From the NCBI RefSeq assembly GCF_002105155.1, contig NW_019028993.1:248001-312000 (forward strand): DNA of 64,000 nucleotides, read 5' to 3'. Both the position numbers and the translations under genes were made by a program. Shown here one piece after another: positions 13,372-35,362 of this stretch; position 1 is the first letter of the stretch; each line of letters starts with the position of its first letter. The notes beneath the pieces are model-generated. The model did no database searches, was not told where the DNA came from, and was given only the letters and a program-made list of their open reading frames with translations. The DNA comes from Lobosporangium transversale. Taxonomy: Eukaryota.

Positions 13372-15519
13372 ATGGGCATTCTCAACCCAGTCTGCACTGC
13401 AACAGATGGTATCCGAGTGTTCGCACTTGCATATGCTTCCAGCTATAGCGACGTATCTTCTAGTTATAATATCTTGATCAAGTCGAACGACTATCCGCAT
13501 GAAAACGTCCAGGACATGACCTGGTCTTTAGTCAGTGCTGTTCCCCGTGATCAATACTATTACCTCAGTGAAGATAATATCAATGGTCGTGGATATGGTT
13601 GTGCAGTCGATAATAAAGGGGTCTTTACGGCTCTAGCACGAATATCACAGCAATCCAAGTCTGCTCCACGCGACGCAGTTGTTAGAGGGATCCAATATAC
13701 ACCTGGTAATGCAGGAGCAGAAGGCACATGGAAGAACATCGATACCTCCCAGCCGTATGTTTGGCTCGAATCTACCAGTGCTCATCTGTACAACTTGATG
13801 GATCCAGTAACAAAGCAAATAACCTTGATGCACGCCTCTGTCTCGACTCAAGGAAACGATACTGGAATCATGATGGCCTCGTTCAATCCTGCCACCAACA
13901 CCATGGAACAAAATGCAGTCCCTTGGAAGTTGGTAAAGCGATCCAGCTCTTTATTGGGTATGTTAGTTTTTTTCATTGTTACCATACTCCACTCGCTAAC
14001 GCATGACTCTATGCTTCTCGAATCATCATTAGCCCTATGTCACTAGGTCTCTTACATTCGGAGGGAACAACGCCCTTCTCGCCTTAGGACAGAACTTAAC
14101 ATCAGTTTGGAATCTTGAATCTTTCTTCGTAACAAAAGTCCTGCTTACACCTGGATCTGTGACAATGCCGAACCCTCCAACACTCAGGCATATTGTGGCA
14201 TATGATTTAGTGGACGAGTGCCTTGCGAATTACTCCGACGTCAACATGTGGCCATTAAAGGATGGCGCTGTGCTATCTTGCAGAGTAAGAAAAAAAAAAA
14301 TACAAATAAAAAAAAACCAAAAAAAAAAAAAAAAAAAGGCATTACGGGATCTCTCCAGAGGTTAACAACTATCAATATACCACTATTCACTTCAATCCCC
14401 CTCCGCCTTTAGTCTAAAGCTCCTGGAGCTGTCATGACTGAGGTATTTACAACGGACGGGGCTAACAAAGTTACCCAACTCACGATTTCTGGGTTTGCAG
14501 GCTTATTTGACAATGTACGTACGATCCTGCTTGTCCAGGGATCAGCCAGTCCGTTCTTGTTCATGTACAACAGTTCTGGTATCTATGGTATTGCTCTAGA
14601 AGTGAGTACAGAATCCAAATGGGCCAGCTCATCGACCAGAATCAACATTCCGGATCAGTATGGCCTTGACATAGGTGGATCTTCACCTTCCGATGGTCCC
14701 TCGGCTGGGAAACCTCGACCAAGCAATGATATTTCAGATAAACATGAAAGCACCAGTAATGGAGGTATGATTGGAGGAGTGTGTGCAGGCATTGTAGTGG
14801 TTGCTGCAGTTGTAGTATTCCTATTTATGCGTAAGCGGCGACAACAGAACAAGGGCGCCAAGAGCGCGTCCAAAGGCTTGGCAGGTTCAGAAGGTAGTAA
14901 TACAGGCTTGGAAGGCAACAACTTGCTCCCACTACAGCCACCTATCGAGCGGGCCATGAAGTCGGATGTCACAGACTCATGTGGACCACATGCAGTACCT
15001 CCAGTACCTGTTCACGATCCTCATGGAAGTCAAGTAGTCTCACCTTTGGATAGTGACGCCTTGGGTCTACCACCAGCTCATCCATCCTCGGATCCTACTA
15101 TACCAGTACCATTATATTGGGAGCCGAAGCCTTTTATTCCTCCTAGGCCAAGCAATATCAGCAGCAACAGCGATAATAATAATCGCACCAATAACAATAA
15201 CGGCGATCAAAGCACAAATGCGAGCACTGCTTTACCTTCAACATCGACTCTCTCAAATGTACCACGATTCTGGGAACCCAAACCATTTATTCCGCCGACC
15301 CGAAACAACAACAATAGTAATAATGACTTTAATAATAGCAATAACAATATTGTAAACAATCATAACAGTAATTCACCATTAATACCAACGGTGTCGGCCT
15401 TGGCGCAAGGGCCCTCAACAGAGAGCCTTCAGTCGTCGGAAGTCTATGCCGAGCGGCGAAATTCACCGTTACATAGAGCTCCTGCTATTCCTCACCACTC
15501 AAGACCGAACGGGCTTTAG
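13372..15519 (+). CDS. Receptor-like single-pass membrane protein, array member A (~639 aa)
   Basis: Exons 13372-13932, 14033-14284 and 14413-15519, all phase 0. Family motifs MGILNPVC, LIKSNDYP..WSLVS, CAVDNKGVFT, GIQY, GTWKNI. TM GGMIGGVCAGIVVVAAVVVFLFM followed by RKRR. Confidence 0.82.
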
Positions 15520-15694
15520 TCGTGAAAAAACCAAGGCTTCTTATTCTTTTCTTTCCTTTAAACAATAAAATATAAAATATAAATGCTTTTTTATATCTCT
15601 GCCAGTGCGTATCCGCTCATAAACATATCTATTTTTACATGGACTCTGTTAATGGATAAACACCTATTGAAGCTTCAAACATTTTTAAAGAGAC

Positions 15695-18001
15695 TATACA
15701 TATTGATTCGGCTGTGCAGAGTGGTTGATTTCTGGGTGCCTCATAAACTTGTAATTTAAACTATTTAAAGTTTACACATTGTTTTGGATGGAGTGAGCAT
15801 GCACATTCAAAATATGTCCACCGACACGCATTACACTTTGTCAAATGCACTTTTTCTTCCGGTCATAAAAACAAAAGCAACAAGGTCCGAAAGCGAGAGT
15901 CGAAAGGACTGAGCACGGCGCGATGTAAGAGCCCCTTCTTCTACTCTTTCCCCCTTTGTTTTCTGTTGACAACTCTCGGATCTAAAGGCGGCGCGAATTA
16001 GTCTGCTCTTAAAATCTTAACTCTAATTGCATGCGTGCACTGCCCCATATACACATGCCTCTCTTTTTTCTTGTTCTCGTTCACTTTCCTTCTGTCCTCT
16101 CTTTTCGTCTTTCTCATTCCCCCAACTACCTCTGTCCACATCAACATGGGTCTTCTCCGTCCAAAATGTCTGACAACGGACAACACTCGACTATACGCTT
16201 TCGCTAGGGAGATGGATCTCGCAACTGAACAATATCACTATCTGCTACTGAAGTCCAATGATAACCCCTCATTCGACCTAAAAGACCTGACTTGGTCCAT
16301 TATCAGTGTTGTTCCTACCACAGGATTGCCACTTTTTGTCTCCTATCCTTATTTTGGTGACTTCGACTGTGTGGTTGATGACCAAGGTGTGTTTTCGATC
16401 ATCGGAAAGAATGATTACGATGAAAACTTCGAAGATTATCCATTCAATGTGAATGCGATGCAATACGTACCCTCGTTGACTCCAGGAACCAATGGCACCT
16501 GGAGAAACATCACCACACCTACACAAGAAGCCGATTATCTTTGGAATCGCGCCTATAAAGGCACATTATTCAATTACAAGGATGCACAGGGCAAGAACAA
16601 TCTGATGCACACCTATATCTCCTCCAACGAGTCAGATGTCTATGTTGCTGCCCTGGATACTACAAGTATGACACTAAAGCAAGGAATAGGTGCTTGGAAT
16701 ATAGTGCGTGTTCATATTTTTCCCGAAGCTGCGTTGGTTTTTGGACAGACACAGGATAAACAGCTAATCTAACTTCACTCTATTGCTGACTTTTTTATTT
16801 TTTATTTTTTATTTTTATTTTTTTTTCCCTAAAAAATTGACTTGGACTTAGACGAACGGAAAGTATTCACATAGTAGCTACGCATCATTTGCAAACAACA
16901 ATATCTATATATACGGCGAGGATTTCGATAAGAGAGCAAAGCAGTTGTTTGCGTTCCCAATCACCAGTGCCTCTCCCAATGCTCCTGGTGTTCTGCCCCG
17001 GGGCTTCAACGCGACAGAAGTGGACAATGCTTGTGGAATTTACACGTCATCGTTCGTAATGCAAGCTCTTAAGGACGACCTAGTTATCTTTTGTCGGGTA
17101 AAAATTGGGTCACTCGTGGTATTACACTCTTTAATTAGAATTTTTCCTCGATCGTCTAAATTTTTTTATTTTTTTATTTTTTTTTTTTCCATGGAGTAGA
17201 GAGGATATCGCATTCACATCTTCAACGGCAGCGGCTTCACAGCACTACCAGTTATCAACAGTGATTTAGAGTTCGAATATATGAATGCTATGGTCCCTTT
17301 CCCAGGCGCTACACCATACCTCTTCATGTATAACAGGGGAGGGTCTTATAGTATTCCGCTCAATGGATCCTTTGTTAGTTCTGTGCTCAAGGGAAATAAT
17401 ATCACAATTGTAGAAAATTATGGGGTTAAACCTTTGACCCAGCCAAATGAGACCCCTATTCCTACAGTAGGGGCCTCCAACTTACCTGCCAATGCAGTTA
17501 CTACGCAAATACCCAACACAGGCACTGAGCAGGAACACTCGAACGCCAACAAAGGAATGATTGCTGGTATTGTTATCTGTATTCTCGCTGCCATGGCATT
17601 TTTATTGTTCAGATTCAGACAACATAAGCGCAATGCATGGAGGAAGAGGAGCAAAAGCGCAGCAAATGCTGCTGCTGCATCTACCGTTGCTGCAAATGGC
17701 GCTGGCGTCGAAGGCTATACTTCCGTTAGCCAAGGGGACTATTCACCATATCCAGCTCAACACCATAATGAGAAGGCGCTACCAGAGGTGAAGGCAAAAG
17801 TGGCAGATGATATCTGGGAGTACAAGACTGTAGACCCAGTTAGCCCATCGATTGCTGGCAGTACAGTCCACTCAAGCCCCTACTTTACCTCTCCACCCGT
17901 CCCTAACCATAGCAAGCCCGGCCTAAGTCCTGGCCAATACTAAATATATAAAAAAGACGCTGCCAGATACGATACCCTTCCTTATACTAGTTTTCATCAT
18001 T
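15695..18001. repeat. Segmental duplication, copy 1 (matches 22474-24780, no differences seen)
   Basis: Constant 6779-nt offset for every ORF and intron. Identity starts at TATACATATTGATTCGG and ends in the 3' UTR. About 80 further nt are homologous but diverged. Confidence 0.93.
16146..17943 (+). CDS. Receptor-like single-pass membrane protein, array member B1 (~515 aa)
   Basis: Exons 16146-16703, 16852-17097 and 17200-17943, phase 0. MGLLRPKC, LLKSNDNP..WSIIS, CVVDDQGVFS, GTWRNI. TM GMIAGIVICILAAMAFLLF followed by RFRQHKR. Confidence 0.82.
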
Positions 18002-18081
18002 AAACCAATCCATTTGCAATATTTTTTGTTCACTTGTTCACATAATAATAGTAGGAGGACAGAGAAGAAAAAGCGCTAGCA

Positions 18082-19597
18082 CGGTGTTCCCTCACTAAGC
18101 CGTCGAAAATCGACGATTTGTTGAAACCGAACCTTTATTGATTTCAAGTGCAGTCATTCCTTCTCTCTTCCTTCACTACCTTCTATCCTTCATTCATCCA
18201 TATACTCAAGCAGATAACCAAGCAATGTCTAACAAACAGCCTTCACAATCGAAGTTTACATGCCCAGCTAAGAGACAGATCGTCTTTGGTAAGTTGCTGC
18301 CTCTGGAGAAGCGAATCCGTTACCCCTACTATAGTCGAGCAGCCAAGCGCGAATTCAGTCGAAATATGGAGACTGTAGAAGACGTTTTGATAGAGTGGTA
18401 TGCTACTGAGACCTTGGCCTCAATGTCACTGATAGATGCCTGCAAGGGGTAGCAGCGATGATTTAGACTGGAATGAGGCCTTTCTCTCTTCCAGATCAAG
18501 TACCAAAACCATGTTATTTTTCGAAATGATGGCTCCATCGCTTTAAAAATAGATATGGCCTTAAACCTTTCACTAGCTATGGCAAAAGTGGGTGGAGCCC
18601 GAGGCTGTAAAGGACTGCATCCAGGCTATTAAAGCCAACCTTACCGACTTCAAGCTTGAAAATACCTACAATTGTGGTAAGACAGACCTTTTCCTTACAG
18701 ATATGCCTAACAAGAAGCATGAGGCTGGACCTATTCATGGAAAAAAAGATTGTTCGGTCAGCTAGAGTCTCAACCCTGTTTTGTAATAACTCAAAAGTGT
18801 CTGACAAGCGCGAACCTTTAGTTCTTGCGATGCATCACCCATTGGATCTGGCCAAAGATTTCTTCAAGACAATGGATGCAAGTCGTTCTAGTAAAGGTTA
18901 AATGAGACAACCTATGTTCACTAAATGGCTAAAGTGACTGGATGGTGACATGCAGGAACAGGGCTTCCCTAATCGACAGTGCACCAGAACATTGGGGTTG
19001 CGAAGCTCTTGAAATCGAGAGCATCACGATCACTTGGCTACCTTCAAATACGAAGTCAATGACAAAGCCTTTGGATGCAGGTGTTATAAGATTGTTCAAG
19101 GCGCTTTAAAGCAATAATATGCTTGAAGCTGTGGTGCGTGTAAGGGCAAAGAGCAAATCGGCTAAGCTTTGCTATCTAACGCGGCGCTTTGGTCGTGTAC
19201 CGCTAGGGCTTGACGATCAGTGACCCCAGCTTGCGTCTGCGGTTGCCTTGTTGAGGTTCCTATTTTGACCTTCGAATAAAGGAACTATTAGCATTGCCTT
19301 GGAATCTAGTCAAAAGGAGAACAGACTCTTCAGCTTCAAAATAAACTCGTTAACGAACATGGTGGAGACAGAGAAAAGGCCACCAAGCAAACGAACACTA
19401 GTGTGCTCAACTGTCTCGCAATGAACTGCTTCGAAGGGTCTTCTGAGGTGGTTAACGGTGCTGTCAATAAGATAATGACTTCCGAAAAGCACAAGCGTCG
19501 CTTCATTCCCCACACGAAAGATGATATCGTTTACGAAAGTGATGAGATAAAGGAAGAAAGACAATGAAGTTTTCGACGGCTTAGTGAAGGAACATTG
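18082..19597 (+). mobile_element. Decayed pogo/Tigger-type (DDE_1) DNA transposon
   Basis: 28-bp terminal inverted repeats at 18082-18109 and 19570-19597 (25 of 28 match), with TA at 19598-19599. Broken transposase remnants: METVEDVLIEWY (CENP-B-like HTH), NCGKTDLF (compare NxDETGLF) and WLPSNTKSMTKPLDAGVIRLFK (compare FLPPNTTSxxQPLDxGII). Many stops and frameshifts. Confidence 0.88.
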
Positions 19598-20092
19598 TAC
19601 AATTCAGCCTGTAAAGTTGAATTTTAAATTCTATTGAAGTTGCCCTTGCCTTCGATAGTCTTCCAATTCTAATATCTCTCGCCTCTGAGTGTTGGGAACG
19701 CTCACTAGATGGCCTGTTATGGGACCAACAAGGCAAACCTCCCCTTTGGATTTACTGAACATCACAAATAATGTTCATATATATATACATGTATGTTTTA
19801 TGACTAAAATGGGGGGCCAACTTAATAATCAATAACTAGGAAGCTACTCTTCCAAGATTCTACATATATTTGATTTCCTATTGTAGATACTATGAATACA
19901 TATAAAAAAAGACTCTTGAGATTGATAGAAAGATATGCCAGGAATTTATTACGGTTTTCTCTTTTCATTTCAAAGTCCTTGGGTATATATGCATTACTCG
20001 AGAAATGTCGAAGGAATATTTAGGAACTCAGATGAATACATCAAAGTCTAAAACATAAAATGTTGATACAAAACGATTTTTTCCCTCCTCCT

Positions 20093-22190
20093 TTATGGGC
20101 TAGGTCGTGAATGCAGTGGAATGGAGGGCGCTCCCGAAACAGGTGAATTCGTGAGCACGCTTTGGCCTCCACTATAGAGAGTGTGAGTCGCTGTAGGAGA
20201 CCCTGCAGAGGCATAACTCGGTGATCCCGTAATATGGTCGACAGAGAGAAGCGTACCAGGAGGCGAGCCTGCTCCATTTGATACACCTGACGATGTGGCA
20301 AAGTTAGGTTGTGGATGTGCCGAAAACAAGAACTGTTGTTGACCAGGCTGTGTTGCCATAGGACTAGACGTTGTTGGGACTCCTCCTGCGTACGCCTGTG
20401 CTTGTTGTGTCGTGTTTGTCCATGCCTGTTGAGTTCCTGTGGGCTCAACGACCATCTTAAAATTACCATGTTCATTGCTATTGGGGCCTATCATTAATGG
20501 CTGTGACGCTGCCTGAGTTGCAGCCTTGCCTTCAGCTTCAACTTCTTTGCGATCGGCCCGCCAACGGTGAAATACAGATCCTGCTGCCGCGAAGGCAATT
20601 AGCAATGCTAAGACAAATCCGACAATGAGACCCGTGGAGGGCGCTGTAGAGTGAACATCTCCTGAAGGAAGGACGGTTATTTTAATATAATCCGTGGGCT
20701 GCGGATTTGGATCAGTACCGAACGTGTCCGTGACATTGATGGTATGGCTCACATTATACCATTGACCAATGTTGGGACCACTGAGGTTAATGCCACGGAT
20801 GTGGGTCTTGTTGTTAAAGTCAACGTGCGGAACAAATGCAAACGCCGGCGCACCATTTCTGGGCCCCATATCTGCCCAGTACATTTCATAAATATCGCGG
20901 GAGAAAACGAGATCCTGGCTCAAATGAGTGTTTGTGGCATTCTTATAGTGTGATTGATCCGAAAGATCCATAGTGAGCAGCCATGGATTCCCGGATTCAT
21001 AGCCCTAACCATGGTTATAGTAAGGAATAAAATAATAGTAACAATAGTAATGATAGAAATGTTAGGAAACATTGTTTTTTCCTTTGATGGACTCGCTATG
21101 CTTACAGAAAGAAGAATATCTTACGGCACGGTAGAGGAAGTAATAAGTATCATCAAAGAAGGAAGTAATCGAGATATCAAAAAGAGTAAGGTTGGGACCA
21201 CTCAAAAAGCTTCCAAAGGGCCCAAACTCTCTGGCATCTGCAGCAGGGATTTTAGCAGGTATTGTAGAGTTTAGGAGTGGGATTGTAAGAATACTGACAC
21301 TGTCAAACGGTCTACGATTATCAGATATGATAAACAATGTGTCTTTATGATAGGTCGCTTTCACGAAATCATAGTACGTGCTATTCTGCGTAACCAATAA
21401 CCAACAAAAAAAAAGGAGGAAATGGGAAGAGAGACATTATTAATGAAACGGTTCATAAGGATCCCAATACATCTGAAGACAATACAGTACAACCATGTTC
21501 TTGTTGTTGCAGCCGCTAGAACTAAATCTCACTCACATAGTTCCAGGTAGGACCTTGGTTCAATTGAAGAGATGCATTGTCTAGCACTCCAAAATTCAGT
21601 ACATGTTGTGTGTCCAGATAAGAGTGAATAACGACGTTGTTGCCTGAAGCATCATTGACATGATAAAGCGATACTGAGGTAGATTCCGTGGTCCAAGAGT
21701 AGGGGCTTATGATATCAATATTCTTCCATCCGCCCTCTCCAGTGTTGTTACCGTTGGGCGTGGCTGGGAAGAGTGGACTGTATTGGAGACCAGCCGATAC
21801 AGGAGGGGATGTTGGTGTTTTGCGTACAGATAGAGCAATAAAGGTGAATACGCCCTATAAAACAAATCAACAGGGAACACATGTCTCAACTTCACATTAC
21901 ATGTAACAATCAAGCACTATCTATGTCTCAAGCAACGTCCTTCGTACCTTGTCATCCACATAACACAATTGACCCCCTTTACTTCCTGAGATATCATATA
22001 ACACTGATGCTTGAACCGAGGAGACTACTTTCCATGAAACATCAGCTGCTGAGGTTGGGTTCTCGTTGGATTTGATTAAGATGAGACGATCAGGATCCTC
22101 AGCGAACATGATACTGTAGTCTCGGTCAACTGCAATTCCATAGAAGGAATTCGCGTTAGAGGCAAAGCAAAAAGGACTAAGGAAGCCCAT
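20093..22190 (-). CDS. Receptor-like single-pass membrane protein, array member C (~577 aa)
   Basis: Exons 22190-21948, 21854-21537, 21385-21125 and 21004-20093, phase 0. MGFLSPFC, LIKSNENP..WKVVS, CYVDDK|GVFT, GLQY, GGWKNI. TM GLIVGFVLALLIAFAAAGSVF followed by HRWR. Confidence 0.82.
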
Positions 22191-22473
22191 TCTTTAAACT
22201 GCTGAGGTAGGAAGAAGAACCGATAAGAATGGGAGTTAAAGAAAAGGAGATGCGAATGCGCTGAGTAAGATCAACCGGTAAGAACAAGAGTAAGAAAAGA
22301 GAAAACTAAAAGTAGGGGGGAAAAAAAAAAAAAAAAAAAAAAAAAAGATGGCAAAGGGCTACAAAGCAAAGGAAGAAAAAAAGAAGTAAACCTCGAGTGA
22401 GCGAGCAACATTGCTCTCAAATTCACGGCGTGTGGATGGATGGTCGTAAAATTTTTCAATTGGGTAAATACTA

Positions 22474-24780
22474 TATACATATTGATTCGGCTGTGCAGAG
22501 TGGTTGATTTCTGGGTGCCTCATAAACTTGTAATTTAAACTATTTAAAGTTTACACATTGTTTTGGATGGAGTGAGCATGCACATTCAAAATATGTCCAC
22601 CGACACGCATTACACTTTGTCAAATGCACTTTTTCTTCCGGTCATAAAAACAAAAGCAACAAGGTCCGAAAGCGAGAGTCGAAAGGACTGAGCACGGCGC
22701 GATGTAAGAGCCCCTTCTTCTACTCTTTCCCCCTTTGTTTTCTGTTGACAACTCTCGGATCTAAAGGCGGCGCGAATTAGTCTGCTCTTAAAATCTTAAC
22801 TCTAATTGCATGCGTGCACTGCCCCATATACACATGCCTCTCTTTTTTCTTGTTCTCGTTCACTTTCCTTCTGTCCTCTCTTTTCGTCTTTCTCATTCCC
22901 CCAACTACCTCTGTCCACATCAACATGGGTCTTCTCCGTCCAAAATGTCTGACAACGGACAACACTCGACTATACGCTTTCGCTAGGGAGATGGATCTCG
23001 CAACTGAACAATATCACTATCTGCTACTGAAGTCCAATGATAACCCCTCATTCGACCTAAAAGACCTGACTTGGTCCATTATCAGTGTTGTTCCTACCAC
23101 AGGATTGCCACTTTTTGTCTCCTATCCTTATTTTGGTGACTTCGACTGTGTGGTTGATGACCAAGGTGTGTTTTCGATCATCGGAAAGAATGATTACGAT
23201 GAAAACTTCGAAGATTATCCATTCAATGTGAATGCGATGCAATACGTACCCTCGTTGACTCCAGGAACCAATGGCACCTGGAGAAACATCACCACACCTA
23301 CACAAGAAGCCGATTATCTTTGGAATCGCGCCTATAAAGGCACATTATTCAATTACAAGGATGCACAGGGCAAGAACAATCTGATGCACACCTATATCTC
23401 CTCCAACGAGTCAGATGTCTATGTTGCTGCCCTGGATACTACAAGTATGACACTAAAGCAAGGAATAGGTGCTTGGAATATAGTGCGTGTTCATATTTTT
23501 CCCGAAGCTGCGTTGGTTTTTGGACAGACACAGGATAAACAGCTAATCTAACTTCACTCTATTGCTGACTTTTTTATTTTTTATTTTTTATTTTTATTTT
23601 TTTTTCCCTAAAAAATTGACTTGGACTTAGACGAACGGAAAGTATTCACATAGTAGCTACGCATCATTTGCAAACAACAATATCTATATATACGGCGAGG
23701 ATTTCGATAAGAGAGCAAAGCAGTTGTTTGCGTTCCCAATCACCAGTGCCTCTCCCAATGCTCCTGGTGTTCTGCCCCGGGGCTTCAACGCGACAGAAGT
23801 GGACAATGCTTGTGGAATTTACACGTCATCGTTCGTAATGCAAGCTCTTAAGGACGACCTAGTTATCTTTTGTCGGGTAAAAATTGGGTCACTCGTGGTA
23901 TTACACTCTTTAATTAGAATTTTTCCTCGATCGTCTAAATTTTTTTATTTTTTTATTTTTTTTTTTTCCATGGAGTAGAGAGGATATCGCATTCACATCT
24001 TCAACGGCAGCGGCTTCACAGCACTACCAGTTATCAACAGTGATTTAGAGTTCGAATATATGAATGCTATGGTCCCTTTCCCAGGCGCTACACCATACCT
24101 CTTCATGTATAACAGGGGAGGGTCTTATAGTATTCCGCTCAATGGATCCTTTGTTAGTTCTGTGCTCAAGGGAAATAATATCACAATTGTAGAAAATTAT
24201 GGGGTTAAACCTTTGACCCAGCCAAATGAGACCCCTATTCCTACAGTAGGGGCCTCCAACTTACCTGCCAATGCAGTTACTACGCAAATACCCAACACAG
24301 GCACTGAGCAGGAACACTCGAACGCCAACAAAGGAATGATTGCTGGTATTGTTATCTGTATTCTCGCTGCCATGGCATTTTTATTGTTCAGATTCAGACA
24401 ACATAAGCGCAATGCATGGAGGAAGAGGAGCAAAAGCGCAGCAAATGCTGCTGCTGCATCTACCGTTGCTGCAAATGGCGCTGGCGTCGAAGGCTATACT
24501 TCCGTTAGCCAAGGGGACTATTCACCATATCCAGCTCAACACCATAATGAGAAGGCGCTACCAGAGGTGAAGGCAAAAGTGGCAGATGATATCTGGGAGT
24601 ACAAGACTGTAGACCCAGTTAGCCCATCGATTGCTGGCAGTACAGTCCACTCAAGCCCCTACTTTACCTCTCCACCCGTCCCTAACCATAGCAAGCCCGG
24701 CCTAAGTCCTGGCCAATACTAAATATATAAAAAAGACGCTGCCAGATACGATACCCTTCCTTATACTAGTTTTCATCATT
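22474..24780. repeat. Segmental duplication, copy 2 (matches 15695-18001)
   Basis: Direct comparison with copy 1; same orientation, offset 6779. Confidence 0.93.
22925..24722 (+). CDS. Receptor-like protein, array member B2 (same sequence as B1)
   Basis: Exons 22925-23482, 23631-23876 and 23979-24722. Translated ORFs are identical to those of B1. Confidence 0.8.
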
Positions 24781-25471
24781 TAAACCAATCCATTTGCAAT
24801 ATTTTTTGCTCACTTGTTCACGTAATAATAGTAGGAGGACAGAGAAGAAAATAAAGCGTTGGCGCAACGCACACCTCCAATAACCTCTCCTTTGGCACTG
24901 CGGGATTATTTACTTTGGCATAATTTTCTCTGGCCCATGTGATCACGCTAAGGTTTTTACTCTACAAGAAAAGGAATAAATGTAAACAAGGGTGGAAAAT
25001 AGAAACCTCTGATGTGTCTTTTTTATGGGTGATCAGAGTCAAAATGAACCCATCTCAGCTCAATAACAACAGGCATGTTTACCTGGCTAGTTGCAGGACA
25101 CTATGTTAGACTTCATAGAAACAAGATAAATTAATCGACTGGCCGGTACAGCTCTTTGTCCTGACTTCATGCCTATTTGCCCTTCATTAGCACATCGGAG
25201 GAAAACCTGGGTACACGCCGCGTTGCTGTTTTTGTTAAAATGAGCCTGCTCATACCCAAGTCAACTTACAACCCAACCCAATAACAACAGACATGTTTGT
25301 TTACTTGACCAAGTTTAGGGAATCCACAAATATCATAACAGAGTGTAAATAAACCGACCGGTCTCGTTGCCACACTCTTACCTCTTTGCCACTATTCTGT
25401 TTTTCACTGAATCGAAGCCCTTATTAATTCCCATTTTTCTCTTATTTCTTTTTTTTTTACAATTTTTCCAA

Positions 25472-25513
<42 letters not shown>

Positions 25514-25543
25514 AATAAAAAATTGAAAAAAAAAAAACGAAAG

Positions 25544-27261
25544 ATGGGTATTCTCGATCCATTCTGCTACGATTTCAGACAGCATCATCTTTATGGGATA
25601 GCTGTCGCACCAGACTATACTGATTTTGAAAAAAAACTCCGTTACATATTGATCAAGTCCAATACGGATCCTCCATCTGCACAAGGCATCACTTGGACTG
25701 TCGTCTCCTCTATTTTACTATCAGAAGTATATGATCTCTATCGACAAAAAGAAGAAGTACAATGTGTAGTCGATGATAAGGTAAGAACAAAAAAAAAAAA
25801 AAAAAGATTACTTGAATCTTATCTCATTTTTTTCATGTGGATGGGGGTCTCTAACCCACACAAAAAAAAAAAAAAAAAAAAAAATAGGGCGTATTCACAT
25901 TAATTAGTCCGACAGCCTACACATCAGCATCGTCAGCTCCAGTGCTAGCTGGGATCCAGTATAGCCCTCTATACCCTCCATCCCCGGATGGCAACAATAC
26001 CGGTCCTGGTGGATGGAAGAACATTGATTTTCAGCTTCCTTATAAATGGAACGATTTTAGCTCACTCTATACCACGCTTTATATCACAAAAGATTTGATT
26101 GGTAAAAATGTGGTTGTTCACACTTGGATTGGCGCGGTACAGACCCTCCATTTCGGTACTCTGGATAATACTTCACTACGGTTTCAGCAAGGGCCTTCAT
26201 GGATATTGGTAAACAAATGGCTTTACAAAAAAACTCTATAATGGTATAGCTTTTTATTTATTCCTATACTCACCTGCTCTTTTACCCTCTTTTCCCTTCT
26301 TTTAGAATTCAACACTGTTCGACCCACAACACGCGACCTATCTTAACGAAAACCTCTTCATCCTTTCACATCGCATGGGACGCACTGGGGTTAAAGATAC
26401 AGTGAGTATTATTACTGCACCATTACCGGATTCGAATATCCCCCCTACTGCTCCTAGCCCCATTCGAGGATTTGGGCCTTTTAGCAACATTACGGCAAAT
26501 GGTGCTAATTTCTCACTGGCTCATCATCAAATGGGAGGATCCTTCGGAGACACCTATTACTTTGTATACGAGCAGGTATGGACGTGCACTGCTTCAGGTT
26601 AAAAGTAAGACAAATCTTTATTACCTAGTGTCGATTGTAACTATTTAAACACCATGCCTTTCTTTCTACCATTCACTCATTCATTTACTATCTCTTCCTA
26701 TAAACCATAATATAGGGTGGCCCTGATGAAAGACCAATGTGGTTGGTCACTATGAATATGGCCAACGTCTCCGAGATAAAAGATCCGAAAAGTACAAAAT
26801 TCAGTCGCCGTTGGCCCATAGATGCCACCACTAAAAGTTTATTATGGCAAACCGTTGGGGGAAGCAGTGAAGGGCCAGCGTTTGCACTAGTGCATACCAC
26901 GAGCCAAAGAAATGCCAGTCGCTACTATGGCTTCAATTTGAATGGCCCTTCGATTGGTCAATGGTATAATGTGACCCATAGCATCAACGTCACAGATTCA
27001 TTTGGGAAGGGGATCGGGCCTACACCTACAGACCTTATTGCTGTAACCATCCACCCCTCAGGCAACGTACACTCCACAGGCCCATCTACAGGTCTAATTA
27101 TCGGATTGGTTATTGCTCTTCTAGCAGTCTTAGGATCCCTTGGCTCCACGGTTTATTACCGATGGCGTACTGCCATTAATAACAGTGATGATAGTCATAA
27201 TAATCAAAATGGAAATCGGTCTCTGTCACAGGCACACATTCATGGGCAGCAACAACAATGA
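25544..27261 (+). CDS. Receptor-like protein, array member D (~457 aa), paralog of C with truncated cytoplasmic tail
   Basis: Exons 25544-25780, 25888-26208, 26306-26575 and 26716-27261, with the same intron positions as C. MGILDPFC, LIKSNTDP..WTVVS, CVVDDK|GVFT. Shares GQWYNV.H.INVTD.FG and PSG.VHST.PSTGLI.G with C. Confidence 0.78.
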
Positions 27262-27835
27262 CATCTCCTCAGCAGCAACCGGTGTTCGAGGGAAAGCAAG
27301 AAGTTGAGCAGCAGGAACTTAAACATAATACCGCATAATCATCATCACTAAGCTCAGCCTGCTCAACAGCCATTCTTATATTCACCCGCTCGCAACCCAA
27401 CTCTACTACATTCTTAGAAGGAAAAATAGATCCAAACTCGCCTTCAGACACCTAACGTAACGGCCGCAGCCCACAGCATCTCTGAGCCGCCTAAACAATA
27501 GGTTCCTCTACTTTCATCAAAATCCTATTTGAAGGAACTCCTTTCTCGAACGGCAATCCAGGGTTTTCGTTAATTTAAACTAGCTATATGTGCTAGTAAT
27601 AATAATTATAATAAATCAATCAAACCAAATCCCATCATATATATGTCTCTTTTTTAATAACAAGCTATCGTCCGCAACAGGAAAAGAGATCTCTTTTTTA
27701 CCCTCACACCCGCTTACTCGACCCATAATGTATGGATTTTGCTAAATAAACAATATTTTCTTTCATTTCTGCTAACCTGTCTCCCATACGCATGTAATCC
27801 GGTTATTTCCAGCTACTTCTCTGAAGGGCCAAAAA

Positions 27836-27866
<31 letters not shown>

Positions 27867-27872
27867 TAAATT

Positions 27873-30330
27873 TTATTGTTTGGTATGAGGGTTGTTTACT
27901 GGGGGACTCAGCCAACCCGTCCCAGGAGGTACGATATTATAGGCAAATGGCGTGGTCTGAGGGTTTTGGTTTGAAGCTAGTCTATTAACATCTTGTTCTC
28001 CAGCCACATTAGCGCGATTGTTGTTATTTTGTGTAAAACCCGGATGCACTTGAAAAGGACTGGGTGGGCTCGGTTGAGTTGTTAAAGAACTAAGCGGCTC
28101 CAGCAGGTACTCACTATAAATTGATCCTGACACGAGAGCGTTATCATTAGTAACATCCGATTGTCCAAAGATCGAGCTGGTTTGGCCCATTGGCTTCAAC
28201 TGAGTTTTCTTAGTTGGTGGCTGAGGCGAATGAGCAGGGGCTATTTCCTCCAATAGAGCGGGCTGCATCCTTGGGGGTGAGACTGATAATGTCGGTACCG
28301 TTGACAGCGTAGGTTCTATTATTGATGATGCTGTTGATGACCCTGTTAAAGATGAGATCCCGTATCCTGGATGTGTCTCCATCCGGACATCCGTAAAGGT
28401 TAAATGAAGTGGTTGGGCTGAATCCTCCGATGCACGTAGTTCTTCTCGTATATCTCTTGTCCCCTCTTCCGTTACCACTGCTTTTGGCGTTGGTGGCTCT
28501 TCCTCCTTGGGGCTTATGGAAGCCTTTCTTTTGCCCTTTGCACCCCCTTCCTTCTGGATTCCTTCTTCCCTCTTGGATTGTGTGCGGCGGCGAAAGAGAA
28601 CGCACAGAACAATAGCGATCGCAACGATCACTGCAGCAGAAATCCCACCAATTACTCCAGGATGAAGAGTACCGCTTTTGTGGCCCTGTCCTTCATCTGG
28701 GTTCCCTTTAGGGGCGGTACTATTGTTGGTATTCCCATCACCGTTACTTGGAGGCCCTGAGTTCCCTGGAGGTGCATTAAAAATGCCATTTGGAGGCGTG
28801 AAAAAATAATCAGGGATCGTGAAGTTTTTGTTAGCGTTAATTTTTTCGCGGGCCAAAGGTCCTTCGAGTGGGATACTGTAGATACCGGAAAGGTCATGCA
28901 TGAAAATATATGGATAGGGCGATCCTGGGAAAGGTATTAAGGATAGAAGATTGTCAGAATCGTAAGTCTCCCGAGCAGCAGGCAAATGAGTCAGTTGCTT
29001 GGAGCCGTCGTCATAGATGAATATGTGAGCAGGCCTTGGGTACTAATCCAAAAATAATGGCATTTTTAATAACAGATGGAAAAAGAAAGATGGTAATAAA
29101 AAAAAAAAAATTGAAATATTAATATTAGTAAATAAAAGCAAATAAATAACAATAATAACAAAATGAATAAAATAAAGTATTAAAAAGAACAGGTAAAAAG
29201 TAAAAAAAAAAAGAATAAAATACAATATAAGAAAGAGTAAAGAAAATAAAATATAAGAATAAAACAAAGAATAAAATAATAAAAAACAGGCGGAAAAAAA
29301 TAAATAAAGAAGGAATAAAATTAAGGGAATAAGCTAAAAAATAAAATAAAAAATAAAAAGAGAATAAGATAAAAAATGAAAAAGAGAATACAAGTTAGTA
29401 AAACGAACGATTGCTTACAGTGCAGAATACAATAGTCCTCTCTTTCAACGGCCGAAGGGAAACATTGTTTCCACAGTATGTAAAGATTTCTGTTGCATCA
29501 AAGCTCCGTACATTTCCTGCAGTAGGTGGGCTTCCTTGAGAATTAAACGGGATTAAGAATAGGCCATTGATTTCATTGACTGAAAAGCCATGTCCATAGA
29601 GCTGTAATGTATTATTGACAAAGGCCAACCCGTACATGGTGTAGCGTTTCAATACTGTCTAAGTACAGTAACATTTTTTTTAATAAAAATAATAATTAAT
29701 AATAATAGCAATAATAATCTTAACAAAATCAAAAACAAAATAAAATACCATGAAGCTTACTGGTTTCCAGGGAGATGGGTTCAGAACCATGGTCATTTTG
29801 GTCGTATCCAATTCAGCAACCATGACATCCGAGCCATTTTTGTCCAAGAATGCATGGAACACTTTGTTCATTGAGCTTCCGTCCTGTCCATTGCCTCCGC
29901 TCTTGATACTGATCAGAGTAGAGGGTTTCATGGTGATCCAAGGGTACACTTTAGGGATCGTAATATTTTTCCATGTTCCCTCTGGCTGGTCCGGATTACC
30001 TACTGGCTGGAATTGTAATCCATTCAACCCAGTTGTAAAATAGTTTTGCGCAATCACTGTGAACACTCCCTCGTCATCTACTGCGCAACTAAAGTCGAGC
30101 ATTTGATCCCAGATCTCAATTTGAGATAAATTAGCTTTAGGAACTGAGCTGATAAGGGTCCATGTGAGATCGTTCAACTTATGACTTGGATTATCGTTGG
30201 ATCGTACCAATAAGTAATGTGTTGACTTGACATTCGCCTTGTTATCAACAATACCCATCCTTGCCGCAGTTGTGAACAGGTAAAATCGACTGCTGTCTGT
30301 GGCGATGCATATTGGTTTAATAACACCCAT
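27873..30330 (-). CDS. Receptor-like single-pass membrane protein, array member E (~659 aa)
   Basis: Exons 30330-29761, 29658-29419 and 29042-27873, phase 0. MGVIKPIC, LVRSNDNP..WTLIS, CAVDDEGVFT, GLQF, GTWKNI. TM GVIGGISAAVIVAIAIVLCVLF followed by RRR. Confidence 0.82.
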
Positions 30331-30370
30331 CCTGATTGATTATCGATTTTTATTGCTCAACTCTGACTAG

Positions 30371-30403
<33 letters not shown>

Positions 30404-30844
30404 TAATAAGGAATGTGCTTGCTGCAAGTAGTTTTATGTATATGCTGCTTTTAGCTCCTTTTTTATTTTTTTTATTTATTTTTTTTATTTTTTTTTTTTA
30501 TTTTTTTTTTTTTTTTGGGAGGAGGAATGGAACATTAATGGAAGAATGATGATGTTTTGAATTCGGCACTGCATCTTTTTATGCTCTCGAGGGCTGAATA
30601 AAATGAAGTTTAATTAAGGTTGTGGGCTTTTTACATGAAGTCTGATTGGACAAAACAGAAAACGTTCATGTTTCATGTAAACGCGCTCTGTTTTTGCATG
30701 AGGAAAAAAAAAAAAAAAAAAAAAAAAATACGACGTTATCCGATGCATTCAATCCACAAGACATAATAACTAGCTCTCTCCAATATTCATTTCTTCTTTA
30801 ATGGTTTATATATTGCCTATTGTCCGTTTCGTATGGTCAACAAT

Positions 30845-30879
<35 letters not shown>

Positions 30880-30881
30880 TT

Positions 30882-30917
<36 letters not shown>

Positions 30918-30918
<1 letters not shown>

Positions 30919-31008
30919 GACAATTGTGTTGATTTAATAGCTATGACTATTCAAAAAAAAAAAAAAAAAAAAACGACAATTGTGTTGATTTAATAGCTAT
31001 GACTATTC
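30918..31008. repeat. Tandem duplication of a 35-bp unit embedded in poly(A) tracts
   Basis: CGACAATTGTGTTGATTTAATAGCTATGACTATTC occurs at 30918-30952 and 30974-31008, separated and flanked by A-runs. Confidence 0.92.
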
Positions 31009-31179
31009 AAAAAAAAAAAAAAAAAAAAAAAAATGTTCATATTACTGATCAAATGAGCTAAAGAGTCTCTCTATTCTGGGATATGTCTCATTGTTACTAT
31101 ACATGTCTCTTTTTTTTAATTTTCCTTTTTTTTTTTTTTTTTTTTTTTTTTCTTTTCATATTATCTATTCACCGTCTTT

Positions 31180-33221
31180 TCAATCCCGGACCTGCGGGTG
31201 ACGAATTGCAGGTAAAGTCTGGACAGTCCGCATAGGGGACGATCCATCATTGTTGACCCCTTCATTGTAACCATAGTCCATTGGCCCTCTGATAGTTCTA
31301 CCGGTGCCGTCACCGTCTACATAGCCCGTGTGGGGACTGTTAAGACGGGGCGTCGCTTTCGTTACTGGTACAACATTCTCTGGCGAAGGTGGTGTTGCCT
31401 TCAACGGACTTGGGACTGGTGGGATGGGGTATAACGCAGCAGGGTCATAGCCTATTTTCTCCTGCTGATAGTCAGGGCTTAAAGTAGCTGGCCATTGATA
31501 GGGCGTAGACGCAGCATACTCCTGCGACATTAGCTGTTGCTGTTGTTGCTGCTGGTGTTCCTGCTGCTGGTAAAAGTGGTTGCTTGGGGGGTATACTGGA
31601 GTTTGCATCCCTTGCCCTGGGTATTGGAACCCACCCCTAGAGTCAGCTTCCTTCATCGGCGTTGGTGGTAATGGTAATGGCGCTTCGACCGAAGCAGCTG
31701 TATTCTTACGTTCGAGTCGACGACGCTTGTAAGCACGAATACATGATACAATGATCGCAAGAACGATCGCGCCACAAAACACGCCAATTAGGATAGGCTT
31801 GGTGCGATTGGTTATTTCAGTAGGGTCTTGGTTTGGGCCTGGGCCTGAGCCTGTTCCGGAACCTGTTGTAGAACTCGACGTTGGGCGATTAGAGCCTGAT
31901 GGCGTGGCACCATAATTATCTGTGATATTGACCTGTTGGTATCCTGATATCAATGCCCCAGCTGAAGCCCCTGTGAGCGGGACGCTGTAAACCCCGTTTA
32001 TATCGGCCATAAAGACATAACTACCTGAGGGGCCGGTCATGGGAACCATTCCCAAGGGGGTTATTCCACTGACAAAGAGAGGCAGTGATTTTACACTGGT
32101 GCCATCGAATACATAAATTTGGTTTCTCTTTTCCGTCATCTATTGACATATATTCAGTAATGAGATGTAGAAAAAGTGAATAAGAGAGTTTTAAAAAAAA
32201 AAAAAAAAAACGACGTCGCCTAATGAAAAATAAAAAACATAAAAAAAGACGTGAAAACGATCATCCTATTAAAAGTAAATTTGAAAATCCTTCTCTTACT
32301 CTGCACATGATAACAATAGTCTCTTGGAGTGAATGCATCCATAGGTTCTTGGAATAGTATGAGTCACACGTTTGACGGACAATGGTTGCATTATATCCTG
32401 TGCCACTAACGGTTGGCGGTGTAGTCGATGGGCCAGAGAGTGGGGTAGCAACCAAATAGGCGTCACTATAGTATCCTTTATATCCAATAGAATACAAGTG
32501 GCTATTTGTGAAAGCAACTGCCCCAGGAACTCCGTACATCTGCTCATCCTTTTAATTTTTTTTAAAAAAATATAATAAATAAAATGTTAGAACATCTCTT
32601 CACCTTGAAGGGCGAGAGAAATAGTTTGCAAAAAAAAAAAAAAAAAAAAAAGAAAAAAGGCATGTTACATACAATGGCCCATATAGATGGGTTCTGGTTC
32701 ATGGTCAGTGAAGCAGAGTCCATAGCTGCGACAGAGATGTGGCCCGTGTAAGCATCAAGTTGTGCTTGCATGGTGGTGAACACGCCCGATGCGTCCTTGT
32801 GTTTGAACAACGGGATAAACATCGAGTCTCCCCACTTATAGCCAGCTGATGTCTTCACGTTCTTCCATTCGCCTTGTCCTGAAGCAGCAGGCTGGTATTG
32901 AAGCCCTCTGATAGTTTGATCATATGATCCTGAAGCACTTTCCCTTGATCGAGATGCAAGCACAGTGAAAATGCCTGTTTCGTCCACTGCACAGCTGTAG
33001 TCGCCGCTGGAATTAGGGCTCTGCTCAAGAAAGACCAAGCCCTCCTGTTTGACGGCGCTAACTAATGTCCATGATAAATCGCTGAGTGTATGTGAAGGTG
33101 TTTTGTTGGAACGAATGAGGACGTAAAATAAATCTTTAGAATCAGCCGACTTTACGGCGACAGAAAATGAATATATGCTGCTGCCATCTGTGGCCAAACA
33201 TATAGGATTAAGGACGCCCAT
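31180..33221 (-). CDS. Receptor-like single-pass membrane protein, array member F (~582-585 aa)
   Basis: Exons 33221-32673, 32548 or 32539 to 32300, and 32139-31180, phase 0. MGVLNPIC, LIRSNKTP..WTLVS, CAVDETGIFT, GLQY, GEWKNV. TM ILIGVFCGAIVLAIIVSCI followed by RAYKRRR. Confidence 0.82.
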
Positions 33222-34595: not shown

Positions 34596-35362
34596 TTAAA
34601 GGGTATCGAACATAGTTAACGAGCGTACAAAGCGATCAACCCCGTTCCTGAAGCCTTCAGCACCCATCGTCTCTGGGTTCACACTTGCCCCATTCGAGCC
34701 CGCATTCGCCAATGGATTTTTGATCACGAGCTCAACATAGAGCTGGGTATAGATCTGGCGTAGAGCTTGTTGAAGTGATTCCACTCCTGGATCCGAGTTG
34801 AGGACAAACTTGAGTCCCGTTAGTGTCTCGTAATAATGAAGTTTATAATGTGAAGTCCTGTAAGCAATAAATCCGTCTTGTTGGCTAGCAAATACCCCCC
34901 AAAAAAAAAAAAAAAAAAAAAAAAAAAACATTCATTCATTCATACATACATATGTTGAAATGTTAGTATTCTCTCTTCACCCTTTTGTACATGCTTATGA
35001 TCAATAGTCAAGCTTTGTCAGAATGATTGTCATTGTGGAAAAGAAGAAAAAAAAAAAAAAAAAAAAAAAAACGAATTTTTTTTTTACCCTTTTCCAAGTT
35101 TCTTGACCAGATTTCTGAGTGAATAGACTACACCATAGACCAATTTTCCTTCCTCCTCAAGTGACATGTTCATGCCCTGCCGTGGATCTGTCATGGTTGT
35201 GGTCGTCGTTGTTGATCCTCCTCCACCACCACTTGCGCTGGCGTGGGATGCCAATGGATCACCGTGTTGGTCAAACGCATTTTTAGCTGTGTGGCCTCTA
35301 TGCCAGTCATGATAGTAGATGCACTGACAGTGCCTGTCAAAAATGTACATGTTGTAGATCAT
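34596..35362 (-). CDS. BET5: TRAPP complex subunit Bet5/TRAPPC1, ~187 aa
   Basis: Exons 35362-35088 and 34884-34596. MIYNMYIFDRHCQCIYYHDW...EEEGKLVYGVVYSLRNLVKKL...F.AYRTSHYKLHYYETLTGLKFVLNSDP...IY..LYVE.VIKNPL. Confidence 0.92.

What the first reader, a model, noticed from the sequence alone, without database searches (positions are those of the whole stretch)
13372..33221. Tandem array of seven diverged receptor-like genes: candidate fungal variable surface-receptor / non-self recognition locus
Seen in sequence: seven spliced genes (A+, B1+, C-, B2+, D+, E-, F-) sit in ~20 kb between housekeeping genes UTP14 and BET5. All encode a ~400-aa N-terminal domain with shared anchors: MG-x-[LI]-x-P-x-C; L[ILV][KR]SNxxP...W[STK][LIV][VI]S; CxVDxxG[VI]F[TS]; G[LI]Q[YF] (AMQY in B); GxW[KR]N[IV]; YxW; N[ILV]T[ID]. 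Highly variable sequence lies between the anchors. Each then has a Gly/Pro/Ser stalk, one TM, a basic stop-transfer and (except truncated D) a long Pro-rich tail without an enzymatic domain. Two subfamilies: A/B/E/F (3 exons, extra Cys pair in exon 2) and C/D (4 exons). The locus also has a recent duplicate, a decaying copy and two DNA transposons. Inference: a conserved scaffold with variable loops (possibly a beta-propeller), birth-and-death evolution and transposon association fit a receptor repertoire under diversifying selection, such as sensing of bacteria, endosymbionts or non-self. I recognise no named domain.
Basis: partly seen in the sequence, partly recalled or inferred. Interest (0 to 1): 0.88.

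Follow-up and report, generated by a model that had tools for sequence, protein, structure and literature searches.

The report
Fungal propeller receptors without signal peptides
Seven neighbouring genes in a soil fungus belong to a large, unnamed family of single-pass membrane proteins whose predicted six-bladed propeller likely faces out of the cell although the proteins have no signal peptide, so they are likely variable surface receptors that would reach the membrane by an unusual route.

Summary
The array is real: seven cleanly spliced genes; RNA-like contigs confirm introns in A, B, C, F. They belong to an unnamed family (321 clusters at 50% identity; all 43 named representatives are Mortierellaceae; no Pfam match). 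AlphaFold2 gives a six-bladed beta-propeller (pLDDT 92-93), followed by a stalk, one TM and a Pro-rich tail with a conserved H[PST][RK]P motif (42 of 74 tails). Loops of one propeller face are hypervariable and aromatic-rich.

The fold starts at residue 2-8, and A and C transcripts carry an in-frame stop just upstream of the ATG. Yet positive-inside charge (72 of 74), N-x-T enrichment (273 vs 146±12) and two conserved Cys pairs indicate that the ~380-residue domain is exported, far longer than usual signal-less N-out domains.

Against fast strain-level diversification: B, C, D are identical in two annotation sets, and subfamilies A, B, C/D, E have counterparts clustered in another genus. Non-self sensing is untested. 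Verdict: new variant of type III receptor; ligand unknown.

The parts
13372..15519 (+). Gene A, 639 aa; exons 13372-13932, 14033-14284, 14413-15519; TM ~391-409; tail with two WEPKPF repeats and a C-terminal PxHSRP motif
   Evidence: intron 1 and exon 3 start in X1 contig, which begins at 13327 and includes the in-frame stop 3 codons before the ATG
16146..17943 (+). Gene B1, 515 aa; exons 16146-16703, 16852-17097, 17200-17943; ectodomain modelled as six-bladed propeller
   Evidence: (= P0027)
15695..18071 (+). First copy of a recent 2.38-kb duplication carrying B with its upstream region
   Evidence: blastn 99.87%, 2 mismatches, 1 gap against 22474-24851
18080..19600 (+). Decayed TIR DNA transposon, DDE_1 (pogo/Tigger-like) remnant
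   Evidence: inverted termini 18085-18106 / 19594 end, 1 mismatch in 22; PF03184 E 3e-4, just under the curated cut-off
20093..22190 (-). Gene C, 577 aa; exons 22190-21948, 21854-21537, 21385-21125, 21004-20093; six-bladed propeller model; one Cys pair
   Evidence: (= P0058); all three introns and a contiguous 116-nt 5' leader with an in-frame stop in X1 contig
22925..24722 (+). Gene B2, protein identical to B1; exons 22925-23482, 23631-23876, 23979-24722
   Evidence: intron 1 joint in X1 laid here (cannot tell B1 from B2)
25544..27261 (+). Gene D, 457 aa; exons 25544-25780, 25888-26208, 26306-26575, 26716-27261; ectodomain and TM intact, tail cut to 35 aa
   Evidence: (= P0059)
27873..30330 (-). 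Gene E, 659 aa; exons 30330-29761, 29658-29419, 29042-27873
   Evidence: residues 25-659 identical to P0001; low-depth cover in X1
31180..33221 (-). Gene F, 585 aa; exons 33221-32673, 32548-32300, 32139-31180
   Evidence: intron 2 joint and exon 1/exon 3 pieces in one X1 contig
11696..12946 (+). Tc1/mariner-like element upstream of A with an open 324-codon transposase frame (11791-12765); weak TIR candidates
   Evidence: PF01498 E 7e-14, PF13358 E 1e-9; inverted ends with 4 mismatches in 22
8143..11041 (+). UTP14, left flank
   Evidence: PF04615 E 1e-135
34596..34931 (-). Last exon of a Sybindin-family (TRAPP, BET5-like) gene, right flank
   Evidence: PF04099 E 4e-17

Best explanation
These are spliced, signal-peptide-less single-pass membrane proteins whose predicted six-bladed beta-propeller likely sits outside the cytosol and likely binds ligands on one hypervariable, aromatic-rich face, while the Pro-rich tail would recruit cytosolic adaptors through short motifs. 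Shown: gene structure, splicing, no N-terminal hydrophobic segment, one TM, family size, conservation pattern. Predicted: the fold. Inferred from three sequence signals: N-out/C-in topology with two disulfides and N-glycans (about 0.85). Inferred mechanism of insertion: the TM acts as a reverse signal anchor; it is caught by SRP while the tail is still being made, and the ~380-residue N-domain, kept unfolded in the reducing cytosol because its fold needs disulfides, is threaded backwards through Sec61 and locked in by glycosylation and disulfide formation (an uncleaved cryptic signal inside blade 1 is the alternative route). Inferred role: a repertoire of kinase-less surface receptors/adhesins, like plant RLPs in logic, with old subfamilies each keeping its own ligand and occasional duplication and decay adding new ones; protein or glycan ligands from other microbes or the fungus's own wall are the likeliest, none is identified.
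For: No signal: best 12-residue insertion energy in the first 35 residues is positive in 74 of 74 full-length members (median +5.0 kcal/mol; TM negative in 74 of 74); the invariant Cys lies 7-15 residues from Met1 in 135 of 135 rows that have it, at position 8 in 108; residues 6-11 are strand 1 of the model; A and C contigs run unspliced through in-frame stops 3 and 1 codons before the ATG; 2 of 3 metagenome loci checked also have upstream in-frame stops and no Met. N-out: net charge after TM > before in 72 of 74 (mean +4.6 vs -0.6); N-x-T 273 vs 146±12 in shuffles in the N-domain, tail 41 vs 32±6; column-stratified odds ratio for T at +2 given N 1.76 (bootstrap 1.36-2.24; 1.45 without the top five columns; D, G, S controls 0.85-1.12); Cys 8/75/247/267 kept in 135/137, 145/145, 89/92, 82/96 rows and the second pair is present together in 72, absent together in 10, discordant in 2 of 84; the TM region's weak PDB matches are mostly type I receptor TMs (E 0.006 or worse). 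Fold: pLDDT 92.9 and 91.9, pTM 0.92, 24 strands, for B and C. Variable face: entropy 3.30 vs 2.52 bits for b-c/d-a loops vs a-b/c-d loops (p 2e-14), Tyr 5.5 vs 1.2%, Trp 2.1 vs 0.5%; differences between near-identical alleles 32/429 vs 8/325 (p 0.003). Tail motifs: H[PST][RK]P 42 of 74 (shuffled 1.1), P[ST]AP 11 of 74 (2.9).
Against: No experiment on topology, glycosylation or localisation. Published work says EMC cannot move long or structured N-tails (PMC10155758, passage) and folded N-domains force the opposite orientation (PMC8745461, passage). Five of 160 fetched proteins have 60-290 extra residues before a domain match (P0076, P0077, P0118, P0134, P0159) and two of them start hydrophobically; they were left out of alignment A4, and I read the two I inspected (P0076, P0134) as mis-called starts with an internal Met at the family start. 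Several members have tails of 6-15 residues, too short for co-translational capture of the TM. N-x-S is not enriched. Sequons are not depleted from the variable face (0.26 vs 0.21 of Asn). The polymorphism signal comes mostly from one cluster (P0036 22/111 vs 4/83) and one cluster shows the reverse (P0137: 13 of 15 changes outside the propeller); relaxed constraint on loops would also give it. Face assignment rests on strand order and standard propeller geometry; I could not read coordinates, so disulfide distances were not measured. Sequences are related, so counts are not independent.
Confidence: 0.55

Rival explanations
1. Same N-out topology, but they are endomembrane cargo or sorting receptors (Vps10/Emp47-like logic), not surface sensors; the tail motifs are trafficking signals.
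For: Propeller + TM + motif-bearing tail also fits sorting receptors (established knowledge); P[ST]AP in 11 of 74 tails; A-type orthologs are kept across several genera with conserved tail motifs.
Against: Hundreds of divergent paralog clusters, tandem arrays and a hypervariable face are unlike the usually few, conserved sorting receptors; YxxΦ, NPxY and acidic dileucine motifs are not enriched over shuffles.
Confidence: 0.15
2. Opposite topology: the propeller folds in the cytosol (Kelch-like adaptor) and the TM anchors it with the Pro-rich tail in the lumen or outside.
For: No signal peptide; folded N-domains normally force N-cytosolic orientation (PMC8745461, passage); Kelch and fucose-lectin propellers are the nearest folds and many of these are cytosolic (recalled).
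Against: Basic cluster follows the TM in 72 of 74; N-x-T selected in the propeller and not in the tail; paired Cys conservation.
Confidence: 0.1
3. A strain-level allorecognition or immune locus under balancing/diversifying selection.
For: Tandem array, variable face, allele differences of 14-32 residues in 434 among L. elongata records clustered on that face.
Against: B, C, D identical in two annotation sets of this species and E identical from residue 25; other allele sets differ by only 10-15 residues in 600-650; no death or enzyme domain in any tail.
Confidence: 0.1
4. Membrane-anchored enzymes (sialidase/glycoside-hydrolase-like propellers) acting on wall or host glycans.
For: Sialidases and GH43 enzymes appear among fold neighbours; His155 is 77% conserved.
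Against: No Arg column above 36%, no Glu above 40%, no Asp above 68%, no Asp-box in 82 sequences; the face that carries propeller active sites is the most variable one.
Confidence: 0.05
5. Ordinary type I receptors whose signal peptide is on a missed upstream exon or starts at a non-AUG codon.
For: B, D, F have 48-65 open codons upstream of the ATG; two database entries start with hydrophobic extensions.
Against: A, C, E have in-frame stops 1-3 codons upstream, inside unspliced contigs for A and C; independent annotations in nine genera start at the same Met.
Confidence: 0.05

Closest known systems
Type III (reverse signal anchor) membrane proteins, e.g. TACI/TNFRSF13B, EDA2R, SIGIRR; neuregulin-1
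   Same: No cleavable signal, single TM, N-out/C-in, receptor role. NRG1 crosses the membrane without a typical N-terminal signal (PMC4929465, one passage).
   Different: N-domain 345-410 residues (median 378). In the list of 38 annotated human type III proteins (PMC8249459 Supplementary Data 1a) 32 have 82 residues or fewer, three have 118-164, and the three over 200 (AJAP1, KLB, SEMA5B) all have an extra hydrophobic stretch near the N-terminus (sheet 1b), which I read as probable signals. Here it is a whole family with a folded propeller.
Fungal fucose-binding lectins AAL / AofleA (PDB 5mxc, 7c37)
   Same: Six-bladed propeller; best structural rows, Z 17.3-17.9 (tied), rmsd 4.2-4.3 A over ~280 residues. 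AAL-type lectins also lack signal peptides (recalled).
   Different: 8-9% identity; no conserved per-blade Arg/Glu; soluble, no TM, stalk or tail; our blades are irregular and disulfide-type.
Kelch-repeat propellers (muskelin, LZTR1, KLHDC; fungal Kelch-TM proteins)
   Same: Six blades, Z 15-16.6; [YF]xP...W spacing in blade 2 resembles the Kelch c-d strands (my reading); Atlas feature hits 0.83-0.84, lead only.
   Different: No Kelch Pfam hit in 71 full-length proteins; GG signature in 1 of 82; TM-score about 0.5.
Plant receptor-like proteins (RLPs) and CRINKLY4-type propeller ectodomains (analogy, recalled)
   Same: Clustered, variable ectodomain, single TM, no kinase in RLPs.
   Different: Unrelated sequence; those have signal peptides; tails here are long and motif-rich.

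Membership tests
Type III (N-out signal-anchor) membrane protein | No cleavable N-terminal signal peptide | tested here: met
   0 of 74 with a favourable 12-mer in the first 35 residues; in-frame stops in A and C leaders. SignalP itself not available.
Type III (N-out signal-anchor) membrane protein | A single TM | tested here: met
   One KD peak 2.4-3.0, next best 0.8-1.4 in all seven
Type III (N-out signal-anchor) membrane protein | N-terminus exoplasmic, sequence signals | tested here: met
   Charge bias 72 of 74; N-x-T enrichment; paired Cys
Type III (N-out signal-anchor) membrane protein | N-terminus exoplasmic by experiment, with the TM as the targeting signal | not testable with these tools
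   Needs glycosylation, protease protection and TM-deletion tests
Kelch-repeat proteins | Six-bladed propeller | tested here: met
Kelch-repeat proteins | Kelch motif (GG...Y...W) / Pfam Kelch match | tested here: not met
   0 of 71 Pfam matches; GG pattern in 1 of 82
AAL-type fucose lectins | Six-bladed propeller | tested here: met
   Z 17.3-17.9, rmsd 4.2-4.3
AAL-type fucose lectins | Conserved Arg and Glu/Gln plus aromatic residue in each blade (residue set recalled) | tested here: not met
   Best Arg column 36%, best Glu 40%; only one Gln/Arg column (106)
AAL-type fucose lectins | Sugar binding | not testable with these tools
   glycan array needed
Sialidases / BNR propeller enzymes | Arg triad and Asp-box repeats (recalled) | tested here: not met
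   No conserved Arg; Asp-box 0 of 82
Fungal allorecognition (het/NLR-type) loci | Highly polymorphic alleles within a species | tested here: inconclusive
   Identical B, C, D in two annotation sets; 14-32 differences in one L. elongata cluster
Fungal allorecognition (het/NLR-type) loci | Cytosolic death/NOD/enzyme domain | tested here: not met
   No Pfam domain in 71 full-length proteins or the window exons

The most novel reading that the evidence does not exclude
Mortierellaceae carry a repertoire of antibody-like propeller receptors for other microbes, with a hypervariable binding face under selection, and build all of them by threading a ~380-residue domain backwards into the ER using only the downstream TM: a family-wide exception to the rule that large exoplasmic N-domains need a signal peptide, and a first surface-receptor repertoire in early-diverging fungi.
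Probability: 0.3. Interest if true: 0.9.

Novelty: new variant of a known kind. Interest (0 to 1): 0.72.

Why it matters
Two open questions become testable. (1) Membrane biogenesis: current models hold that signal-less N-out domains are short because EMC cannot move long or folded tails; a natural family with ~380-residue ones gives ready substrates for finding the route (Sec61 backwards, Sec62/63, SND or something else). It also warns that signal-peptide filters miss this whole surface family in secretome and receptor surveys. (2) Fungal sensing: Mortierellaceae live with bacterial endosymbionts, plants and nematodes, and I found no described single-pass receptor repertoire for them in my searches; this family has the build of one.

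Tried and rejected
No whole genome is held, so copy number in this genome is unknown; one further L. transversale copy outside the window appeared (P0038). Pfam: nothing at cut-off for the 20 exons or 71 full-length proteins (2 sub-threshold TM hits). PDB sequence searches gave nothing for the propeller. Foldseek PDB and viral libraries gave only generic propellers, TM-score 0.4-0.54. Atlas feature hits were all under 0.9. Run search listed one run, no holder on record as RNA; D and most of B1 had no cover in X1, which says nothing on expression. A 59-nt GT..GC joint in E exon 3 at depth 2 was treated as a likely artefact. Alternative A donor at 13958 rejected (phase, and X1 uses 13933). Metagenome scan: 3 of 36 pattern matches were relatives; none showed UTP14 or BET5 nearby (L001 had 10 kb upstream only), so synteny with the flanks is untested. 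N-myristoylation considered and dropped: Gly2 in only 52 of 74. Tail motifs PPxY, YxxΦ, NPxY, RxxPxxP, dileucine not enriched. Idea that glycans avoid the variable face not supported. dN/dS not possible without DNA of the alleles. B1/B2 as an assembly artefact not excluded, but the copies differ at 3 places and have different flanks. Three look-ups of earlier findings returned nothing. No complex prediction was run: no candidate partner.
Full report
Observation. Reading the window and splicing by coordinates gives seven stop-free genes between UTP14 and a Sybindin/BET5-like gene: A+ 639 aa, B1+ 515, C- 577, B2+ 515, D+ 457, E- 659, F- 585. All 16 introns are GT..AG, phase 0, at homologous places; C and D have one extra intron. 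Pairwise identity is 24-46%, except B1 = B2, which lie in a 2.38-kb duplicate 99.87% identical. B, C and D equal public Lobosporangium transversale proteins letter for letter, E from residue 25. Contigs of one public run (X1; RNA is the tool's guess) skip A intron 1, all three C introns, B intron 1 and F intron 2, and carry pieces that fit the remaining A and F introns. A decayed DDE_1-type element with inverted termini follows B1; a Tc1-like element lies upstream of A.

The family. A profile of six ectodomains found 321 clusters at 50% identity with E up to 0.001, 190 up to 1e-10 (best 150 fetched). All 43 representatives for which a tool printed an organism are Lobosporangium, Mortierella, Entomortierella, Benniella, Modicella, Gamsiella, Linnemannia, Actinomortierella or Podila, that is Mortierellaceae (family assignment from my knowledge); the rest are unnamed, so the range is sampled, not proven. 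None of 71 full-length proteins reaches a Pfam cut-off. For statistics I used the 74 of 160 fetched proteins with a TM starting at residue 330-430; the other 86 are fragments, first-exon calls or shortened models.

History of the array. In a FastTree tree of 92 ectodomains (320 columns, midpoint root) the window's genes are not one clade. A sits with M. claussenii P0002 and E. beljakovae P0004 (0.98), E with P0025 (0.99), B in a clade with P0026 (0.96), C+D with P0127 (0.98). Neighbouring tags also occur in Mortierella sp. GBA43, Modicella and Actinomortierella. Recent events sit on top: the B duplicate, the C/D split, the shortened tail of D.

Fold. AlphaFold2 with 146 and 75 aligned sequences models B (1-348) and C (1-373) at pLDDT 92.9 and 91.9, pTM 0.92, each with 24 strands, i.e. 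six four-stranded blades, the first strand at residues 6-11. Nearest solved folds are generic: fungal fucose lectins AofleA and AAL (Z 17.9, 17.3; rmsd 4.2-4.3; 8-9% identity), then muskelin Kelch (16.6); Foldseek TM-scores are 0.4-0.5. Kelch GG, Asp-box, conserved Arg or Glu are absent, so it is filed under none of them and shows no catalytic set.

The unexpected feature. There is no signal peptide. The best 12-residue insertion energy within the first 35 residues is positive in 74 of 74. The invariant Cys lies 7-15 residues from the first Met in all 135 rows that have it. A, C and E have in-frame stops 1-3 codons before the ATG, and X1 contigs run unspliced through those of A and C. Five of 160 entries have longer N-terminal extensions and were left out of the alignment; two inspected show the family start at an internal Met. 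Still, three signals place the propeller outside the cytosol: net charge is higher after than before the TM in 72 of 74; N-x-T sequons number 273 against 146±12 in shuffles, with no excess in tails or for N-x-S, spread over 168 columns and surviving a within-column test (odds ratio 1.76, 1.36-2.24; controls near 1); and two Cys pairs are near-invariant, the second gained or lost together. The N-domain is 345-410 residues long. A neighbouring unrelated gene (frame 38810-40180) shows a normal hydrophobic leader, so the genome does use ordinary signals.

Baseline from papers. PMC10155758 (passages): EMC cannot translocate long or structured N-tails; a typical N-out tail is about 33 residues. PMC8745461 (passages): folded N-domains force the opposite orientation, and it cites work that folding, not size, is the limit. 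PMC8249459 (passages and first part of supplement 3): 32 of 38 listed human type III proteins have N-domains of 82 residues or fewer. bioRxiv 10.64898/2026.04.18.719382 (passages and section 6): 304 human type III proteins; its supplements, which may list long exceptions, were not seen. PMC4929465 (one passage): NRG1 crosses without a typical signal, a precedent. PMC11360300 (one passage) was not relevant.

How it likely works. Inferred: the TM is the first hydrophobic segment to emerge; SRP delivers the ribosome while the tail (median about 170 residues) is still being made; the N-domain, which needs disulfides to fold, is still unfolded and is fed backwards through Sec61, then fixed by glycans and disulfides. 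An uncleaved cryptic signal within blade 1 is the alternative and would suit members with very short tails. At the membrane the propeller stands on a 30-50-residue Gly/Pro/Ser stalk. Loops b-c and d-a, which form one face in standard propeller geometry, are more variable than the opposite loops (3.30 vs 2.52 bits), richer in Tyr, Trp and Phe, and collect more differences between near-identical alleles (32/429 vs 8/325; stalk, TM and tail 26/913). That is the pattern of a ligand-binding face, though the allele signal is mostly one cluster, one cluster shows the reverse, and relaxed constraint is not excluded. Tails have no domain but share H[PST][RK]P (42 of 74 vs 1.1 shuffled; in A, B, C), WxPxPF (9 vs 0; in A) and P[ST]AP (11 vs 2.9), likely docking sites for adaptors or trafficking factors.

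What survives is a receptor-like repertoire with slow birth-and-death.

Novelty. Searches (listings and abstract starts only; open-access library) showed no paper on this family; one search (Mortierella, Kelch, transmembrane, expanded) returned none. I rate it a new variant of a known kind: type III receptors exist, but a family of hundreds with a ~380-residue propeller and no signal is outside the usual range. Confidence in N-out topology about 0.85, in the full reading 0.55; interest 0.72.

Noticed in passing
window 38810-40180 +: Single open frame for a type I membrane protein with a long hydrophobic leader, an 8-Cys domain, Gly/Asn/Pro stalk, TM, basic stop and Tyr/Gly/Gln-rich tail; no Pfam family at cut-off. 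Unrelated to the array.
   Followed up: partly
window 45338-48070 +: IPT/TIG domain with a weak SPT23/MGA2 DNA-binding hit: likely the Mga2/Spt23 ortholog.
   Followed up: no
window 62014-63069 +: Pyrroline-5-carboxylate reductase.
   Followed up: no
window 4906-7059 +: 717-codon exon with no Pfam hit; its start looks like the end of an Mdm34-type SMP domain (recalled, untested).
   Followed up: no
window 11696-12946: Tc1-like transposase frame is open for 324 codons but the termini are degenerate; single copy in the window.
   Followed up: partly
window 30897-31008: Exact 56-nt tandem duplicate next to poly-A runs between E and F; may be an assembly slip.
   Followed up: no
window 17682 (run X1 loose end): A B-gene contig continues for 255+ letters unlike the window in the tail region: chimera or another B-like transcript.
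   Followed up: no
tails of family members (P0024-P0160): A longer motif around FSSHPRPN[FV]VT recurs in many tails; C carries a variant. Whether other Mortierellaceae membrane families share it was not tested.
   Followed up: partly
P0036 cluster (L. elongata records P0166, P0168, P0169): Multi-allelic hot spots at residues 169-173, 193-199, 72-75 and 92-93, all in loops of the variable face; best place to test positive selection.
   Followed up: partly
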